Positions 17,433 through 32,148 of a DNA stretch of 46,372 nt are shown here, one piece after another. The notes under the pieces were generated by a model. It saw only the letters and a list, made by a program, of their open reading frames with translations, was not told the origin of the DNA and did not search any database. The DNA comes from Ignavibacteriales bacterium UBA6490 (GTDB lineage Bacteria; Bacteroidota; Ignavibacteria; Ignavibacteriales; Ignavibacteriaceae). The stretch spans positions 1 to 46,372 of the forward strand of contig DJMM01000008.1 in assembly GCA_002435365.1 (NCBI GenBank), in the 5' to 3' direction. The position numbers and the translations under genes were made by a program. Within the stretch, counting starts at the first letter, position 1. Each line of letters begins with the position of its first letter.

Positions 17433-18920
17433 CTATTTTAAGTTTTTAACAACCCTGAGAATCGAATAATTTTCTCCTTCCTTCAGCAGATTCGCATAAT
17501 TCCTGTATGTAACCAGTCCAAGCTCCGATTTCGGTTCAAGTGCAATAACAATCATATTGTTTTTTAACTGGTTTGCTGGAATAAAAATGTAATCGTTCTC
17601 AGAAAGTTGATTTGTAATTTCTTTCAGTTCAGTTATGGGATTTACAACTATGTCGCCTTCAAAATCCATTGAATCAATTCGAATGATGTGGTATTGCTCT
17701 ATCTTATATTCATTTGAATTTTTAAAATCATAATAAACCAGGGAATGTTTTCCGGCCCAGTCAATCACCTCATTAAGAACTTTTGGTACTAAATAACCTA
17801 TGGGCCGCTCAACATCATATAAGGATTTCACAACGGGACGGTAATCGGCAACAGTGATAATTGTATCAGAATCGGAGTAATATGACAAAAGAGGAAGTTC
17901 CAGCTTACTGCCGTCAGAGAAATGATCTAACTGGATTGAGATATTCGGGCTTATCTCACCTTTGACAAGTTTTTCCCTCTGATCCGCTATAAGATTCTTA
18001 ATTTCATCTTTATGCCTGTAGCTGTAAACCAGCAGTCCCATCATTCCTGCCATCTGTGTTTCGGAACGTCTTTTTATATTGTCCAGGGAATCTATTCCGT
18101 TTTTACCCTCCTGTATAAAGGAAAAAGAATTTTGAATTCCCAGGCTTTGTCTGCCGTCATTTATGTCGAAGGTGCTTCTTCTTATGTAATTAACTTCCGG
18201 AGGTCCTCCCGGGAGGTATTCAAAACAGCTGATCTCTTTATCCTTAAGATAATCTATTATGAAATTCAGATACTCACGGGATAATTCAGTGATATTCTGC
18301 GAAATATTTATGTTGGTTACAGTGCCTATTTCCACTTCGTTATCAGTCCTGTACCCGTAAATTTTCCAGGTTTCGCCATACGGAAAATATTCATGTACAT
18401 CAAGGGTTACATCAAAAAGATATTTATTGAACAATTTATGCAGACCCGCTGTTTCCGGCTCAGTAAGGATCAGGTGGTTGCGGTTGAGGTCCATTGCATT
18501 TCCATTACGCCGCTGATTTTTTTCAGAACCATCGGGGTTCATTTGGGGTACTATAGCCAGATCAATTTTATCGAGTAAATATTGATTTTCAGATCTCAGC
18601 ATTTCATTTATTAAAAGCAGTGCACCTTCTTTGCCGGAATGCTCATTACCATGCTGTTGGGCAAAGATGAGTATTTTTAATTTTGTTTCATCTTTTCCAA
18701 AACCGTCTTTCGAAAGGTATACGGCATATAGTTTTCTTCCTTCAACAGATTCAGCGATCACTTCTTTGGTCACGAGATCGGAGTTATGGTCAGCAACCTC
18801 CAGGAATTGAGAAAGTTCATCGTGCGATGTAATTTTTGTATAATTACATTTTTGCAGCGGGGTCAACTGACCGACAGCAGATGCAAAAAACAGAAATTGA
18901 AAGAAAAGAATTTTCTTCAT
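17433..18920 (-). CDS. M14-family zinc carboxypeptidase, secreted
   Basis: HxxE zinc motif QQHGNEHSG, plus MDLNRNH and TLDVHEY (third zinc ligand context). Signal peptide MKKILFFQFLFFASAVGQ. Confidence 0.85.
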   Translation of the reverse strand: MKKILFFQFLFFASAVGQLTPLQKCNYTKITSHDELSQFLEVADHNSDLVTKEVIAESVEGRKLYAVYLSKDGFGKDETKLKILIFAQQHGNEHSGKEGALLLINEMLRSENQYLLDKIDLAIVPQMNPDGSEKNQRRNGNAMDLNRNHLILTEPETAGLHKLFNKYLFDVTLDVHEYFPYGETWKIYGYRTDNEVEIGTVTNINISQNITELSREYLNFIIDYLKDKEISCFEYLPGGPPEVNYIRRSTFDINDGRQSLGIQNSFSFIQEGKNGIDSLDNIKRRSETQMAGMMGLLVYSYRHKDEIKNLIADQREKLVKGEISPNISIQLDHFSDGSKLELPLLSYYSDSDTIITVADYRPVVKSLYDVERPIGYLVPKVLNEVIDWAGKHSLVYYDFKNSNEYKIEQYHIIRIDSMDFEGDIVVNPITELKEITNQLSENDYIFIPANQLKNNMIVIALEPKSELGLVTYRNYANLLKEGENYSILRVVKNLK

Positions 18921-19049
18921 ATTGTATTAAACTTTCTTGTTAAAGAGTTGCTGATTATACTATAATTTTTGACGGCTAAGCTGCTCTGATATTTTATATC
19001 CGGTATTCATATCCTGAAAAACTGTAAACACCGGGAATTTGAAGAAATA

Positions 19050-20042
19050 TTAAAAACTCAAATTCACCGAAATCCGGTGTACGCTAGGTAAAATATCATA
19101 TACAGAATAAGCGTAGTCAAAGTAAACTGCAGTGCTGCCTAACGGAACATTTGCACCCGCACCAAATGCAAAATCCTGGTCATCATAATTATACTTATAG
19201 CCGGCACGGACAAAAAATCTGTCAAAAAAGGAGAACTCTGTTCCGAAATGAGCACGTTCACGGTTATCATTCGGATGTGAAACATCAATTGCACTTTTCA
19301 TTTTTACAAAGTTCAGCTCAAACACATCAAAGCCAACTCCTACCTGGAAATACAATGGCAGCGGATATTCTTCAGTATTTAATCGGCTGGGGATTAATCT
19401 GCTTATAGGATAGTTATTATCTTTCCTGTGTATAAAGTCAAGATCGGGGCCGTCAAATTTCATATCCGAACCGAAGTTTGTCATGCACATAGCAATTGTC
19501 AGATTATGGAAATCGAGCCTGTACTGGGTACCGATATCAAATGCAATTCCCGATGCAGTCTCATTCCATATTCTTTGATTAATGTACTTAACTGTTAAAC
19601 CGACATTAAATTTGTCAGTCAGGAACCTTGCATATGAAAAACCTAATGCAATATCGCCGGCATCGAAATATCTTCCGGTGCCGTTTGGTTCTTCTTCAGT
19701 CGTAATCTCCATTTTACCTGTAGTGAACAAAATCATGCTGGCACCGAAAGTTCCCAGGTCACCCGCATTATAAACAACCGAAGCCGCATTGAAATCAAAT
19801 AAATCAAACCAGTTCATATAGGAAAAATGAGCCTGAACATTTTTAACTTTTGCAATTCCGGAAGGATTCCAGAATATGGCAGAGGCATCATCTGCAAAAG
19901 CTACTATTGCGCAGCCCATTGCTTCAGCACGGGCACCTACCGGGAGCTGAAGAAACTGGGCACCGGTTGTTCCAAGGTTCGGATTTTGTGCAATAATTTT
20001 TCCGAAGCTTATTATAAGTATAAAGAATAATATTTTTTTCAT
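19050..20042 (-). CDS. PorV/PorQ-family outer-membrane beta-barrel (T9SS-associated)
   Basis: Signal peptide followed by GTTGAQFLQLPVGARAEAMGCAIVAFADDASAIFWNPSGIA, which is the N-terminal signature I associate with PorV/PorQ. Alternating beta-strand pattern and a C-terminal aromatic residue (VNLSF). An AGGAG Shine-Dalgarno sequence is present. Confidence 0.7.
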   Translation of the reverse strand: MKKILFFILIISFGKIIAQNPNLGTTGAQFLQLPVGARAEAMGCAIVAFADDASAIFWNPSGIAKVKNVQAHFSYMNWFDLFDFNAASVVYNAGDLGTFGASMILFTTGKMEITTEEEPNGTGRYFDAGDIALGFSYARFLTDKFNVGLTVKYINQRIWNETASGIAFDIGTQYRLDFHNLTIAMCMTNFGSDMKFDGPDLDFIHRKDNNYPISRLIPSRLNTEEYPLPLYFQVGVGFDVFELNFVKMKSAIDVSHPNDNRERAHFGTEFSFFDRFFVRAGYKYNYDDQDFAFGAGANVPLGSTAVYFDYAYSVYDILPSVHRISVNLSF

Positions 20043-20060
20043 TTAAACTCCTGCTTCAGA

Positions 20061-31027: not shown

Positions 31028-31036
31028 TGTATTATT

Positions 31037-32131
31037 TTAGTTTAATTTCAATAATTCCAAAGCTATCTCAGCTGTTTTATTAAGATCCTCAAGTAATATA
31101 AATTCATCATTTGAATGAGGATTTTGTGCTCCGATCCCCAAATTGATTGCCTGGATTCCCATACTATTAAGGGAGTTGGCATCACTTCCGCTTAAAGACG
31201 ATACGGGCTTTGGGTTTAGGCCCACTTTTGTTAATATTTTGTATGTTTCCCTGAATAAATCATCTTCCTCAGTTATTTGGTAAGGCATAAAATCCCAGAT
31301 AGATATGAATTCTGAGGTTGCACCGGGTTTCTTTGCTTCGGTTTCAAAAATCGTTTTTATGTTCTCAATAATATTCAGAACTTTATCAGTGTTAAAAGAT
31401 CTTACCTCACCGCTAATATCTACAAGATCAGGAATGACGTTAACGGCAGAACCACCTTTTATTGTTCCTAAATTAACAGTGGTTTCGGGATCAATTTTGC
31501 CCTGTTTTATCTGACTGATAGCTTTTGCAGCTATTTCGATTGCGTTAATACCTTTTTCCGGGGCAAGTGCCGAATGTGTTGCTTTACCTTTAACTTTGAC
31601 TTCGAACCCCATCGATCCGCAAGCACTATTTATGAATGTTCCGGGTCTGAATGCACTATCGAAGACGAATCCTTTTTTGATTTTACCATTGATCTGAAGA
31701 TTTTTCGAACCCATTAAAGTCGTTTCCTCACAGGTAGTAAACGCAATAGTAAAATCTTTATGATTGATTCTTTCCTTGTGAAGTTTTTCAATTGTGAACA
31801 GCAGTACTGCTATTCCGGCACGATTATCTACACCCAGGACAGTATCTCCCCCTGATGTTATCCTATCTGATTTAATTACAGGCTTAACATCCCTGGTTGT
31901 TCTTGCGGTATCCATATGAGAGAGTAGCAAAATATCGCCGCCGTCCCCTTTGCTACAAATTATATTACCAGAATTACTCTGCGATCTGGCGGCTGAATTA
32001 TCTTCTACTACATTAAGAGAGTATTCAGAAAGGAATTCTCTAATAAAATCAGAGAGTGGTTTTTCCTTACCTGATAATGCTTCTATTTTAGCCGTTTTTA
32101 TAAATAACTCAATCAGCCGATCATTATTCAT
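31037..32131 (-). CDS. M20-family metallopeptidase (PepT-like di/tripeptidase subgroup)
   Basis: Metal-ligand contexts LLSHMDT, LGVDNRAG and TTCEETTLMGS. 364 aa with no signal peptide. It lies 9 nt upstream of the cyanophycinase gene. Confidence 0.8.
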   Translation of the reverse strand: MNNDRLIELFIKTAKIEALSGKEKPLSDFIREFLSEYSLNVVEDNSAARSQSNSGNIICSKGDGGDILLLSHMDTARTTRDVKPVIKSDRITSGGDTVLGVDNRAGIAVLLFTIEKLHKERINHKDFTIAFTTCEETTLMGSKNLQINGKIKKGFVFDSAFRPGTFINSACGSMGFEVKVKGKATHSALAPEKGINAIEIAAKAISQIKQGKIDPETTVNLGTIKGGSAVNVIPDLVDISGEVRSFNTDKVLNIIENIKTIFETEAKKPGATSEFISIWDFMPYQITEEDDLFRETYKILTKVGLNPKPVSSLSGSDANSLNSMGIQAINLGIGAQNPHSNDEFILLEDLNKTAEIALELLKLN

Positions 32132-32132
32132 C

Positions 32133-32148
32133 TGTAATATATATTACA
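32133..32148. promoter_or_regulatory. 16-bp perfect palindrome TGTAATATATATTACA abutting the M20 start codon
   Basis: Read directly: TGTAATAT / ATATTACA. It occupies mRNA positions -2 to -17 relative to the ATG (32131..32129), where a Shine-Dalgarno sequence would be expected, and none is present. Confidence 0.5.

What the first reader, a model, noticed from the sequence alone, without database searches (positions are those of the whole stretch)
17433..32148. Co-directional 11-gene block that looks like a PUL-style locus for a non-carbohydrate polymer (cyanophycin/peptide)
Seen in sequence: all genes from the M20 peptidase (32131) down to the M14 carboxypeptidase (17433) lie on the minus strand. 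The junctions are +9, -4 (ATGA), +48, +16, +58 (with hairpin), -4 (ATGA), +23, +18 and +129 nt. The gene content gives a complete logical chain. For depolymerisation there is a cyanophycinase with a signal peptide and a secreted M14 carboxypeptidase. For the surface or secreted layer there are two paralogous T9SS cargo proteins plus a 914-aa FN3/CTD protein. For outer-membrane import there is a CarboxypepD_reg-type TonB receptor, and for inner-membrane import a YfcC-type carrier. For cytoplasmic cleavage there is an M20 peptidase, and an RpiR regulator is also encoded. Established knowledge: classical polysaccharide utilisation loci pair SusC with SusD, and cyanophycinases release beta-Asp-Arg dipeptides. 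Inference: this is a SusD-less, T9SS-coupled capture-and-import system for an extracellular polyamide or peptide substrate. To my knowledge that organisation is not a described system type.
Basis: partly seen in the sequence, partly recalled or inferred. Interest (0 to 1): 0.68.

Follow-up and report, generated by a model that had tools for sequence, protein, structure and literature searches.

The report
Ignavibacterial cyanophycin-scavenging locus without SusD
This ten-gene block is a cyanophycin (Asp-Arg storage polymer) scavenging locus conserved across Ignavibacteriota, and it imports its substrate through an uncharacterised three-protein outer-membrane module instead of the SusC/SusD pair used by Bacteroidota.

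Summary
Ten (not eleven) co-directional minus-strand genes lie at 17433-32131, with exactly the junctions listed, and every family call was reproduced except FN3.

The block is a real unit. In 80 species-level Ignavibacteriota genomes the order M20, cyanophycinase, YfcC, one or two T9SS proteins, RpiR, TonB receptor, ~914-aa protein, PorV/PorQ-like barrel, M14 is kept almost without exception, while the upstream flank differs.

New findings:
- Two RpiR-type palindromes (TGTAAY-N4-RTTACA, 30 bp apart) sit between a conserved TTGAC box and the M20 start codon in about 60 genomes.
- The hairpin at 26165-26200 has non-homologous counterparts in about two thirds of genomes. About ten genomes have a gap of 5 nt or less there.
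- The two paralogs and the 914-aa protein appear to share a beta-supersandwich module.
- The receptor, 914-aa-like protein and PorV-like barrel recur as a trio in other FCB phyla without cyanophycinase.
- Most relatives carry a second, T9SS-tagged cyanophycinase-like gene that this window lacks.

A PUL-like cyanophycin utilisation locus was already described in Bacteroidetes (Ben Hania 2017), so the concept is not new. This SusD-less architecture appears undescribed. Verdict: new variant of a known kind.

The parts
32201..32206 (-). Conserved TTGAC-type -35 box (TTGCTT in this window) of the locus promoter
   Evidence: In upstream regions stacked on the distal operator (61 of 64 distinct sequences), the cTTGAC consensus reaches at least 80% per column. 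It lies 23-24 nt upstream of the distal operator. Coordinates were read.
32178..32183 (-). Tentative -10 element (TAATAT), 17 nt after the -35 box and abutting the distal operator
   Evidence: Position read. The consensus in relatives is TAAnTC, so this assignment is tentative.
32163..32178 (.). Distal operator-like palindrome (TGTAATAAATGTTTCA on the minus strand)
   Evidence: A site at about -48 of the M20 ATG is present in 61 of 64 distinct upstream sequences.
32133..32148 (.). Proximal operator-like perfect palindrome TGTAATATATATTACA, ending 1 nt before the M20 ATG
   Evidence: A site at about -18 is present in 53 of 64 distinct upstream sequences, and 52 have both sites, 30 bp apart. Of 167 sites with at most 1 mismatch, 106 lie within -60..0 of the M20 ATG.
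31037..32131 (-). Cytoplasmic M20 PepT-like peptidase, candidate hydrolase for imported beta-Asp-Arg or oligomers
   Evidence: Pfam M20 and M20_dimer hits. TIGR01883 reaches 238.9 bits, below its cut-off of 274. Nearest PDB sequences are 3gb0 and 3rza, about 1e-55. No signal peptide. Present in 57 of 58 loci.
30173..31027 (-). Cyanophycinase (S51) with an N-terminal signal peptide and no CTD, so probably periplasmic
   Evidence: TIGR02069 183.8 bits against a cut-off of 126.6. PDB cyanophycinases 7uqv 7e-41 and 3en0 5e-31. The GTSAGA, GGDQ, DQHF-x2-R-x-R-x2-R and GIDE motifs are kept. Present in 58 of 58 loci.
28776..30176 (-). Inner-membrane DcuC/YfcC (ArcD-type basic amino acid antiporter family) carrier
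   Evidence: PF03606 354.9 bits. NF008611 405.6 bits, below its cut-off of 500. Present in 51 of 58 loci. A diverged locus (L062) has an NhaC-family carrier instead.
27600..28727 (-). T9SS type-A cargo, paralog A: beta-supersandwich N-domain plus CTD
   Evidence: TIGR04183 45.3 bits against a cut-off of 23. AF2 pLDDT 83. Foldseek matches GH94/GH15 N-domains, YidC P1 and mutarotase folds, E 6e-8. 119 homolog clusters, nearly all Ignavibacteria.
26210..27583 (-). T9SS type-A cargo, paralog B: the same N-domain, an extra ~85-aa insert, and a CTD
   Evidence: 31% identity to paralog A over the N-domain, E 3e-31. TIGR04183 39.6 bits. 15 of 58 loci have two copies and 43 have one.
26165..26200 (-). 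Strong intergenic hairpin between paralog B and rpiR, a likely partial terminator or stabiliser
   Evidence: -26 kcal/mol, z -4.2. It is not called a terminator by the consensus scan because the U-tract is weak. Non-homologous GC hairpins, many followed by a T-run, occupy the same junction in about 47 of 72 loci.
25282..26151 (-). RpiR/MurR-family regulator (HTH_6 + SIS), with a 4-nt overlap onto the receptor gene
   Evidence: Present in 57 of 58 loci.
22829..25285 (-). TonB-dependent receptor with a CarboxypepD_reg N-terminal domain; not a full SusC
   Evidence: PF13715, PF07715 and PF00593 hits. TIGR04056 reaches 102 of 368 bits, over its N-terminal part only. Present in 58 of 58 loci. 31-37% identical to the receptors of distant trios.
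20061..22805 (-). 914-aa exported protein: supersandwich-type module, variable beta-rich middle, conserved ~140-aa C-terminal CTD-like region
   Evidence: No Pfam hit. CTD 19.7 bits against a cut-off of 23. hhalign to the paralog family gives 86% probability, E 5e-6. Foldseek of a poor model (mean pLDDT 55) hits the same GH94 N-domains. The superfamily has 1432 representatives at E<=1e-10.
19050..20042 (-). PorV/PorQ-family (FadL-like) outer-membrane barrel, the cognate partner of the 914-aa protein
   Evidence: NF033709 222.6 bits against a cut-off of 90. It falls below the PorV and PorQ equivalog cut-offs. Present in 59 of 59 loci. It follows the 914-aa-like gene in the five distant loci whose contigs extend past that gene.
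17433..18920 (-). Exported M14 zinc carboxypeptidase with an uncharacterised ~300-aa C-terminal part
   Evidence: PF00246 74.7 bits. Nearest PDB sequences are P. aeruginosa CCP-like 4a37 (7e-9) and carboxypeptidase T. Present in 50 of 59 loci.

Best explanation
The block is the Ignavibacteriota version of a cyanophycin utilisation locus. It is a conserved ten-gene unit that captures, imports and hydrolyses extracellular cyanophycin or its beta-Asp-Arg/Lys fragments.

Shown:
- A bona fide cyanophycinase gene sits in a gene order conserved across the phylum.
- A conserved promoter carries two RpiR-type palindromes in front of the first gene.
- The outer-membrane part is a trio (receptor, 914-aa protein, PorV-like barrel) that is inherited together.

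Inferred working model:
1. Three T9SS-exported proteins that share a beta-supersandwich module (paralogs A and B and the 914-aa protein) bind the polymer at the cell surface.
2. The 914-aa protein stays attached through its unusual, highly conserved C-terminal domain to its cognate PorV/PorQ-like barrel, and acts as the surface partner (a SusD or lid analogue) of the TonB receptor.
3. Fragments are pulled into the periplasm. In most relatives they are produced outside the cell by a T9SS-tagged cyanophycinase-like enzyme that this window lacks.
4. The signal-peptide cyanophycinase cuts the fragments to beta-Asp-Arg, and the exported M14 enzyme may trim or split Arg-terminated products.
5. The YfcC/ArcD-type carrier moves dipeptide or arginine across the inner membrane, and the cytoplasmic PepT-like M20 enzyme finishes hydrolysis.
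6. The locus RpiR represses the single conserved promoter by binding the two operators. One overlaps the presumed transcription start and the other the ribosome-binding site.
7. The hairpin after paralog B lowers, but probably does not abolish, transcription into rpiR, the receptor and the downstream genes.
For: Cyanophycinase identity:
- TIGR02069 scores above its equivalog cut-off.
- The protein aligns to solved cyanophycinases with the catalytic and pocket motifs kept.

Unit character:
- The gene order is kept in 80 species-level genomes. Component frequencies are 51-58 of 58 upstream and 50-59 of 59 downstream.
- The window's upstream flank (BatA, HflX) is found in none of these loci.

Coupling of the two halves:
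- A second cyanophycinase-like gene with a T9SS CTD lies between the PorV-like gene and M14 in 42 of 59 loci.
- In L062, an S51-CTD gene and a paralog directly precede the trio, with no RpiR between them.
- The junction between the T9SS paralog and rpiR is 0-5 nt in about 10 genomes.
- Operator-like sites cluster at the M20 promoter only: 106 of 167 sites with at most 1 mismatch.

Operator type: RpiR-family regulators HexR and RccR bind TTGT-N7-8-ACAA and TGTAGT-N3-ACTACA (PMC5489143).

Cross-phylum link: a 38%-identical homolog of the paralogs lies next to a true SusC/SusD locus with a cyanophycinase (169 bits) and IadA (442 bits) in a Sphingobacteriia MAG.

Shared binding-type fold: AF2 and Foldseek for paralog A; hhalign and Foldseek for the 914-aa protein.

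Trio as a module: the receptor, a 914-aa-like protein and a PorV-like barrel recur in distant FCB contigs, with all three members homologous to those in the window.

Anchoring precedents: the PorZ CTD is retained on PorQ, and type-B cargo genes cluster with cognate PorP/SprF barrels (PMC10202324). A FadL-type barrel, BamG, bridges BamA and a surface protein (PMC12578637).
Against: - No experiment exists. The substrate, the localisation and every protein-protein contact are inferred.
- The SIS domains of known RpiR regulators sense sugar phosphates, not peptides.
- The paralog fold is a carbohydrate-binding-type fold.
- A strong hairpin separates the halves in about two thirds of genomes, and no operator-like site lies upstream of rpiR or the receptor gene.
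- The window lacks the T9SS-tagged cyanophycinase-like gene.
- The M20 enzyme is only PepT-like and falls below its hypothetical-equivalog cut-off. The M14 enzyme is not CphZ-like.
- The model of the 914-aa protein is poor (mean pLDDT 55), and the homology to the paralogs rests on 86% hhalign probability.
- The CTD of the 914-aa protein is sub-threshold.
Confidence: 0.65

Rival explanations
1. The block is two independent neighbouring operons. The upstream one is a small cyanophycin-dipeptide catabolic operon (M20, cyanophycinase, YfcC, paralogs). The downstream one is an RpiR-controlled receptor operon for an unrelated, probably sugar-containing, substrate.
For: - A strong hairpin sits at the junction here and in about 47 of 72 relatives.
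- RpiR/SIS regulators classically sense sugar phosphates (family matches; PMC5489143).
- The trio occurs elsewhere without cyanophycinase, once near a GH31 gene and a LacI regulator.
- The paralog fold is carbohydrate-binding-like.
Against: - The two halves are adjacent in all 58 loci with enough upstream flank to show both.
- A second cyanophycinase-like gene is embedded in the downstream half in 42 of 59 loci.
- The junction gap is 0-5 nt in about 10 genomes.
- The only conserved RpiR-type operators lie at the promoter of the upstream half, whereas rpiR is encoded in the downstream half.
- In this window only about 15 nt separate the hairpin from the rpiR ATG, which leaves no room for a separate promoter after it.
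Confidence: 0.1
2. The locus targets peptides other than cyanophycin, for example peptidoglycan-derived or D-amino-acid or isopeptide-containing peptides, or poly-aspartate. In this reading the S51 enzyme is a broader Asp-specific peptidase.
For: - The M14 enzyme has weak MpaA-like and AstE-like matches (E 1e-4 to 1e-3).
- An enolase-superfamily gene (MR_MLE; TIGR01928, 336 bits) is recurrently linked. In some loci it overlaps the M14 gene by its stop codon, which recalls E. coli mpaA-ycjG (the E. coli pairing is from my own knowledge).
- MurR is an RpiR-family member.
- The M20 enzyme distantly matches a poly(aspartic acid) hydrolase, 7ljh, 1e-10.
Against: - The S51 protein passes the cyanophycinase equivalog cut-off and keeps the Arg-rich pocket motif of solved cyanophycinases.
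- The second S51 copy also matches cyanophycinase best.
- Homologs of the paralogs sit beside a SusCD, cyanophycinase and IadA locus.
- The MpaA and AstE matches are far below their cut-offs.
Confidence: 0.15
3. The 914-aa protein and the PorV-like barrel are not import partners of the receptor. They are a surface adhesin or S-layer-like protein with its dedicated T9SS shuttle or anchor, co-located with receptors for regulatory or assembly reasons.
For: - PorV-family barrels are known as T9SS shuttles and anchors (PMC10202324).
- Nothing shows contact with the receptor.
- The model of the 914-aa protein is too poor to reveal a lid-like shape.
Against: - Receptor, 914-aa-like and PorV-like genes keep the same order, with short gaps, across phyla and in different functional contexts. 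All three members diverge in step: 31-37%, 26-42% and 35-42% identity.
- Intergenic gaps are 23 and 18 nt here.
Confidence: 0.2

Closest known systems
Cyanophycin utilization locus (CUL) of Salinivirga cyanobacteriivorans L21-Spi-D4 (Ben Hania et al. 2017, Environ Microbiol 19:1134). Known here only through PMC10206079 and PMC6243061, because the paper itself is not held.
   Same: Both are dedicated, PUL-like clusters for scavenging extracellular cyanophycin in an FCB bacterium. Both combine cyanophycinase genes, an outer-membrane TonB-type transport complex, a transporter and a dipeptide-hydrolysing enzyme. In Salinivirga one of the two cyanophycinases carries a Por/T9SS domain, as in most Ignavibacteriota relatives of this locus.
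   Different: This locus has no SusD and no full SusC, and no iadA (a PepT-like M20 takes its place). It adds a 914-aa protein with a PorV-like barrel, one or two supersandwich T9SS proteins, a YfcC carrier, an RpiR regulator and an exported M14. This particular window lacks the CTD-tagged cyanophycinase. A Bacteroidota locus of the SusCD type was seen directly in L002.
Classical SusC/SusD polysaccharide utilisation loci
   Same: The logic is the same: surface binding proteins, a TonB-dependent importer with a CarboxypepD_reg-type N-terminal domain, periplasmic and cytoplasmic hydrolases, an inner-membrane carrier and a local regulator.
   Different: The defining SusC/SusD pair is absent. The surface proteins are T9SS cargo rather than lipoproteins, since their signal peptides have no lipobox Cys. 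The substrate is a polyamide.
T9SS cargo with a cognate PorV-like barrel: PorZ-PorQ, PorU-PorV, and type-B CTD cargo with PorP/SprF (PMC10202324)
   Same: A gene for a CTD-bearing surface protein lies next to a gene for a PorV-family barrel. The C-terminal ~100 residues are nearly invariant among orthologs, which is consistent with a retained, barrel-bound CTD.
   Different: In this locus the pair is fused into an operon with a TonB receptor and appears to serve nutrient import. The barrel is neither PorV nor PorQ by the equivalog models.
CphE/CphB cyanophycinases and the dipeptidases CphZ, IadA and IaaA (PMC9974463, PMC10206079)
   Same: The 284-aa enzyme is a standard cyanophycinase with a signal peptide, like extracellular CphE. 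The pathway ends in hydrolysis of beta-Asp-Arg.
   Different: None of the three known dipeptidase families is present. The candidates here are a cytoplasmic M20 and an exported M14 that is not of the CphZ (AotO-like) subfamily.

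Membership tests
Cyanophycinase (S51, TIGR02069) | Score above the curated equivalog cut-off | tested here: met
   183.8 bits against a cut-off of 126.6.
Cyanophycinase (S51, TIGR02069) | Ser-His-Glu catalytic residues and the conserved Gln/Asp-Gln/Arg pocket. The residue roles come from my knowledge of the CphB structure 3EN0. | tested here: met
   The alignment to 7uqv shows that the GTSAGA, GGDQ, DQHF-x2-R-x-R-x2-R and GIDE motifs are kept.
Cyanophycinase (S51, TIGR02069) | Hydrolysis of cyanophycin to beta-Asp-Arg | not testable with these tools
   This needs an enzyme assay.
Polysaccharide utilisation locus (SusC/SusD type) | A SusD/RagB-family lipoprotein encoded next to the receptor | tested here: not met
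   None of the ten products hits SusD_RagB or SusD-like models.
Polysaccharide utilisation locus (SusC/SusD type) | A receptor of the SusC/RagA subfamily (TIGR04056) | tested here: not met
   102.3 bits against a cut-off of 368.25, and only residues 21-243 match.
Cyanophycin utilization locus sensu Ben Hania 2017 | Cyanophycinase gene(s) clustered with an outer-membrane transport complex and a transporter | tested here: met
Cyanophycin utilization locus sensu Ben Hania 2017 | Isoaspartyl dipeptidase iadA in the locus | tested here: not met
   No Amidohydro or TIGR01975 hit in the window block. IadA is present in the Bacteroidota locus L002.
Cyanophycin utilization locus sensu Ben Hania 2017 | A Por/T9SS-tagged cyanophycinase | tested here: not met
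   Absent from the whole window. Present in 42 of 59 related loci.
T9SS type-A cargo (TIGR04183 CTD) | A C-terminal sorting domain scoring above the cut-off of 23 bits | tested here: met
   Paralog A 45.3 bits, paralog B 39.6 bits.
T9SS type-A cargo (TIGR04183 CTD) | The same feature, for the 914-aa protein | tested here: inconclusive
   19.7 bits, below the cut-off of 23. The VVPNPY...GIYIYVV motifs are visible by eye. The C-terminal ~140 aa are conserved across the superfamily.
PorV or PorQ (T9SS components) | Equivalog-level match to PorV (NF033710) or PorQ (NF033711) | tested here: not met
   78.7 bits against 250, and 117.9 bits against 220. Only the umbrella PorV/PorQ family model NF033709 is passed, at 222.6 bits against 90.
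CphZ cyanophycin dipeptide hydrolase (M14, AotO-like, cd06250) | Membership of the AstE/AspA-like M14 subfamily, and cytoplasmic location | tested here: not met
   Only PF24827 at E 0.001, 19.1 bits against a cut-off of 25. No PDB sequence match to the CphZ-type entries 3FMC or 3LWU at E<=0.1. The protein has a signal peptide.
RpiR/MurR regulators | An N-terminal HTH_6 domain plus a C-terminal SIS domain | tested here: met
   PF01418 56.5 bits and PF01380 75 bits.
RpiR/MurR regulators | Binding to the TGTAAY-N4-RTTACA sites, and the identity of the effector | not testable with these tools
   Only a phylogenetic footprint and similarity to the RccR and HexR operators are available.
YfcC (NF008611) | Equivalog cut-off of 500 bits | tested here: not met
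   405.6 bits. Family-level PF03606 is passed at 354.9 bits.

The most novel reading that the evidence does not exclude
The receptor, the 914-aa-type protein and the PorV-like barrel form a previously unrecognised, widespread class of tripartite outer-membrane nutrient importer in the FCB group (Ignavibacteriota, Calditrichota, Ca. Glassbacteria, Marinimicrobia-like lineages). In it, a T9SS-delivered surface protein, held by its retained CTD on a dedicated PorV-type barrel, plays the substrate-capturing role that SusD lipoproteins play in Bacteroidota, and its variable middle region sets specificity. A second element of this reading is that the locus's PepT-like M20 (or its exported M14) is the beta-Asp-Arg hydrolase that Sharon et al. 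(PMC10206079) report as still undiscovered in Bacteroidota and Firmicutes.
Probability: 0.35. Interest if true: 0.8.

Novelty: new variant of a known kind. Interest (0 to 1): 0.62.

Why it matters
- Ecology. Cyanophycin is a major nitrogen-rich storage polymer of cyanobacteria and many other bacteria, and who recycles it in anoxic mats, sediments and sludge is poorly known. A locus conserved across the phylum would make Ignavibacteriota predicted cyanophycin scavengers, with cultured relatives available for testing.
- Membrane biology. The locus exposes a receptor-partner architecture (TonB receptor, T9SS cargo and a PorV-like barrel) that recurs in over a thousand representative sequences at 50% clustering and carries no Pfam annotation. 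If it is an importer, it broadens the SusCD paradigm.
- Enzymology. It gives two concrete candidates, an M20 and an exported M14, for isoaspartyl dipeptidase activities that are still missing.
- Regulation. It provides a clean promoter-plus-operator footprint for an RpiR regulator that may sense a non-sugar signal.

Tried and rejected
- FN3 in the 914-aa protein: no Pfam hit at E<=0.01, so it is not confirmed.
- Structure of the 914-aa protein: the AF2 model on a 20-sequence alignment was poor (mean pLDDT 55, with only residues ~510-810 confident). Its Foldseek hits are used only as support for the hhalign result.
- Generic sigma-70 and terminator scans over the block were no better than shuffles (59 sites against 50±6.9, and 11 against 13±4.1). 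They missed the 26165-26200 hairpin and chose a promoter that is not conserved, so I relied on phylogenetic footprinting instead.
- Operator sites upstream of rpiR, the receptor gene and M14: found in 1 of 73, 4 of 77 and 2 of 55 loci. Rejected.
- Intragenic operator-like site at 25504-25519: it is at a fixed position (+632 of rpiR) in 24 of 71 loci. It encodes the conserved SIS motif V-I-S-I-T with AT-rich codons, so coding constraint can explain it, and I do not count it as an operator.
- Other intergenic regions (28722-28782, 18915-19055, 17300-17440) show no significant structure.
- Remnant of the CTD-tagged cyanophycinase in the 129-nt gap or elsewhere in the window: none found.
- M14 as CphZ: rejected.
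- PorV-like gene as the housekeeping PorV or PorQ: rejected at equivalog level.
- The Ben Hania 2017 paper could not be read, so its content is taken from citing papers.
- Literature searches found nothing on Ignavibacteria with cyanophycin, on M20 with cyanophycin, or on a PorV-like barrel paired with a TonB receptor. This covers only the open-access library.
- Distant homologs of the paralogs: P0110 has no cyanophycin context. P0112 and P0113 share only the PKD-protein neighbour before their contigs end.

Full report
OBSERVATION. The ORF map shows ten consecutive minus-strand ORFs between 32131 and 17433. Nine junctions mean ten genes, so the title's 'eleven' is a miscount.

Pfam and NCBIfam scans give, in transcription order:
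- a PepT-like M20 peptidase with no signal peptide;
- an S51 cyanophycinase (TIGR02069, 183.8 bits against a cut-off of 126.6) with an N-terminal signal segment;
- a DcuC/YfcC carrier;
- two T9SS type-A cargo proteins (375 and 457 aa) that are paralogs (31% identity over about 255 residues, E 3e-31);
- an RpiR (HTH_6 + SIS) regulator;
- a CarboxypepD_reg + Plug + barrel TonB receptor, which reaches only 102 of the 368 bits needed for the SusC/RagA model;
- a 914-aa protein with no Pfam domain and a sub-threshold CTD (19.7 bits against 23);
- an exported M14 carboxypeptidase.

FN3 was not detected. The hairpin between paralog B and rpiR is real: a 14-bp stem at 26165-26200, -26 kcal/mol, z -4.2.

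IS IT A UNIT? The N-domain of paralog A has 119 homolog clusters, almost all from Ignavibacteria and all unnamed. Three neighbourhoods at 55-58% identity already showed the whole block.

I then aligned 20 orthologs of the 914-aa protein (A1) and scanned one genome per GTDB species. 188 genomes encode a relative, and the best 80 loci (51-80% identity, nearly all labelled Ignavibacteriota or Bacteroidetes/Chlorobi-group MAGs) were fetched with 10-kb flanks. A tblastn search with the window's proteins gave these counts:
- Among 58 loci with at least 9.5 kb upstream: the receptor in 58, RpiR in 57, YfcC in 51, the cyanophycinase in 58 and the M20 in 57. All 58 have a T9SS paralog (one copy in 43, two in 15).
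- Among 59 loci with at least 6 kb downstream: the PorV-like gene in 59 and the M14 in 50.

Gene order and strand are the same throughout. The window's upstream neighbours (BatA, HflX) appear in none of the loci. A minimal core is seen in a subgroup (L069-L073, L076, L084): M20, cyanophycinase, paralog, RpiR, receptor, 914-aa protein and PorV-like barrel.

LINKS BETWEEN THE TWO HALVES.
(i) In 42 of 59 loci a second S51 gene with a T9SS CTD (about 680 aa; its best family is cyanophycinase at 105 bits, below the cut-off; it keeps GTSAGA and the Arg triad) lies between the PorV-like gene and M14, inside the 'receptor half'. This window has no such gene anywhere.
(ii) In a diverged locus (L062) an S51-CTD gene and a paralog directly precede the receptor, 914-aa-like and PorV-like genes. 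An NhaC-family carrier takes the place of YfcC, and there is no RpiR.
(iii) The junction between the last paralog and rpiR carries a GC-rich hairpin, often followed by a T-run, in about 47 of 72 loci. The hairpin sequences are unrelated to each other, so the feature rather than the sequence is conserved. The junction is 0-5 nt in about ten genomes and short and unstructured in about a dozen more.
(iv) In this window only about 15 nt lie between the hairpin and the rpiR ATG.

A CONSERVED PROMOTER AND DUAL OPERATOR. A perfect palindrome, TGTAATATATATTACA, ends one base before the M20 ATG (32133-32148), and a second, imperfect copy lies 30 bp upstream (32163-32178). Among 64 distinct M20 upstream sequences, a site with at most 2 mismatches to TGTAAY-N4-RTTACA is present at about -48 in 61, at about -18 in 53, and at both in 52. 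A TTGAC box conserved in at least 80% of sequences lies 23-24 nt upstream of the distal site.

Of 167 sites with at most 1 mismatch in these loci (about 1.4 Mb), 106 lie within 60 nt of the M20 ATG. The motif is essentially absent upstream of rpiR, the receptor gene and M14. Its half-sites resemble the experimentally defined operators of the RpiR-family regulators RccR (TGTAGT-N3-ACTACA) and HexR (TTGT-N7-8-ACAA) (PMC5489143).

The simplest reading, which is inference, is that the locus RpiR represses a single promoter by binding one site at the transcription start and one over the ribosome-binding site. Downstream genes, including rpiR itself, would then be reached by attenuated read-through of the hairpin. 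A further site inside rpiR (25504-25519), fixed at +632 in 24 of 71 loci, encodes the conserved V-I-S-I-T motif and can be explained by coding constraint.

THE ENZYMES. The 284-aa protein aligns to solved cyanophycinases (7uqv 7e-41, 3en0 5e-31) and keeps the nucleophile motif GTSAGA, GGDQ, DQHF-x2-R-x-R-x2-R and GIDE. The functional meaning of these residues comes from my knowledge of the CphB structure.

The nearest solved relatives of the M20 are PepT-like proteins (3gb0 and 3rza, about 1e-55), with a distant match to a poly(aspartic acid) hydrolase (7ljh, 1e-10). The M14 is closest to a P. aeruginosa CCP-like carboxypeptidase and to carboxypeptidase T. It is not of the CphZ (AotO-like) subfamily, which is cytoplasmic (PMC9974463).

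Sharon et al. state that the isoaspartyl dipeptidases of Bacteroidota and Firmicutes 'remain undiscovered' (PMC10206079). The M20 sits next to a cyanophycinase in 57 of 58 genomes, which makes it a concrete candidate, but nothing here shows its activity.

THE SURFACE PROTEINS. Paralog A was modelled with confidence (pLDDT 83). Its N-domain is a beta-supersandwich like the N-terminal domains of GH94 and GH15 enzymes, YidC P1 and mutarotases (Foldseek E down to 6e-8). This is a non-catalytic, ligand-binding type of fold.

A profile-profile comparison of the paralog family with the 914-aa family gives 86% probability (E 5e-6) over paralog residues 124-273 and 914-aa residues 187-381, including the terminal helix motif. 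The poor model of the 914-aa protein also retrieves the same GH94 N-domains. So the locus probably encodes three exported proteins built on one module.

A 38%-identical homolog of the paralogs lies next to a genuine Bacteroidota cyanophycin locus in a Sphingobacteriia MAG. That locus has IadA (442 bits against a cut-off of 331), a cyanophycinase (169.5 bits against 126.6), SusC, SusD and a PKD protein. Two further distant homologs keep the PKD neighbour before their contigs end, and one has an unrelated context.

THE TRIO IS GENERIC. An exhaustive HMMER search of 1.84 billion cluster representatives finds 3492 relatives of the 914-aa protein at E<=1e-3, of which 1432 are at E<=1e-10. Beyond the orthologs, these are 900-1600-aa proteins that share the N-terminal half and the last ~140 residues at 31-38% identity, with a variable middle. 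Named members come from Ca. Glassbacteria, Calditrichota and Marinimicrobia.

Six such paralogs were looked up:
- A PorV-like gene follows in five of them. In the sixth (L089) the contig ends after a 104-aa fragment of the next gene.
- A CarboxypepD_reg receptor gene precedes in the four contigs with enough upstream sequence. A fifth contig begins with a C-terminal receptor fragment, and the sixth begins too close to the gene to tell.
- All three members are homologous to those in the window: receptor 31-37%, PorV-like 35-42%, 914-aa N-half 26-31% and C-terminus 34-42%.
- None of the six has an S51 gene. Neighbours include a GH31 gene with a LacI regulator, multihaem cytochromes and FG-GAP T9SS proteins.

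The window's trio is therefore the cyanophycin-associated instance of a widespread, unannotated module.

How the trio works is inference. The C-terminal ~100 residues of the 914-aa protein are nearly invariant among orthologs. In the T9SS the CTDs of PorZ and PorU are retained and bound by PorQ and PorV, and type-B cargo genes cluster with cognate PorP/SprF barrels (PMC10202324). A FadL-type barrel (BamG) has also been shown to bridge BamA and a surface protein (PMC12578637). By analogy, the PorV-like barrel would hold the 914-aa protein at the surface next to the receptor.

COMPARISON WITH WHAT IS KNOWN. A PUL-homologous 'cyanophycin utilization locus', with two cyanophycinases (one Por-tagged), iadA and a transporter, was described for Salinivirga cyanobacteriivorans in 2017. 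I could not read that paper and rely on PMC10206079 and PMC6243061. A receptor next to a cyanophycinase was noted in Citromicrobium in 2012 (PMC3400609).

The present locus fails the defining features of a SusC/SusD PUL, and it lacks iadA and, in this window, the tagged cyanophycinase. I found nothing in the open literature on an Ignavibacteriota cyanophycin locus, on an M20 in cyanophycin catabolism, or on a receptor paired with a PorV-like barrel. Melioribacter roseus does have a separate SusCDE starch operon (PMC3534657), so the phylum is not devoid of SusD; this locus simply does not use it.

VERDICT. I rate it a new variant of a known kind, with two leads of wider interest: the generic receptor, T9SS-cargo and PorV-like module, and candidate missing dipeptidases. 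Interest 0.62.

Noticed in passing
window 14847-16016 (+) and 16119-17258 (-); L036:15758-16870; L044:13834-14958: An enolase-superfamily gene (MR_MLE; TIGR01928 OSBS/N-succinylamino-acid-racemase family, 336 bits) and a saccharopine-dehydrogenase-like gene recur next to the block in many genomes, in varying positions and orientations. In one subgroup a ~50%-identical MLE paralog sits inside the block and overlaps the M14 gene by its stop codon. This hints at a functional M14-racemase/epimerase pair.
   Followed up: partly
L007:13912-14991 (and 22 other loci): A 359-aa gene with a weak C45/AAT-like (autoproteolytic acyltransferase/hydrolase) match lies between the PorV-like gene and the CTD-tagged S51 gene in 23 loci. 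It is absent from this window.
   Followed up: partly
window 25504-25519: An operator-like sequence, TGTAATTGAAATTACC, lies inside rpiR, about 235 nt upstream of the receptor start, and is fixed at +632 of rpiR in 24 of 71 loci. It encodes the V-I-S-I-T motif of the SIS domain, so coding constraint may explain it, but an internal operator is not excluded.
   Followed up: partly
window: N-termini of the products of 30173-31027, 27600-28727, 26210-27583, 20061-22805, 19050-20042 and 17433-18920: Six of the seven signal peptides are followed by Gln right after the likely cleavage site (…SAQ, …FGQ, …FTQ, …FAQ, …IAQ, …VGQ). This matches the 'Q-rule' (N-terminal pyroglutamate) known from Bacteroidetes, a comparison I make from my own knowledge.
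   Followed up: no
L012, L015, L017, L020, L049, L052: intergenic region between the T9SS paralog and rpiR: Several genomes carry a longer insert of 140-190 nt at this junction. It is made of paired inverted repeats such as TTGTCATTCCCGCGCAGGCGGGAATC … GATTCCCACTTTCGTGGGAATGACA, which looks like a small repetitive (REP- or MITE-like) element that landed at the terminator position.
   Followed up: no
L091 and L092: Distant relatives carry two receptor-plus-large-protein sets back to back on opposite strands. FG-GAP/FlgD_ig T9SS proteins lie nearby, as do (in L091) a GH31 gene and a LacI regulator. This suggests the trio module is duplicated and re-used for other substrates.
   Followed up: partly
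window 9946-11244 (+): An MFS/POT-type oligopeptide:H+ symporter-like gene lies about 6 kb beyond the end of the block. Its neighbours in the window include an aconitase, an EVE-domain protein and a CHASE histidine kinase. It was not tested for conservation with the block.
   Followed up: no
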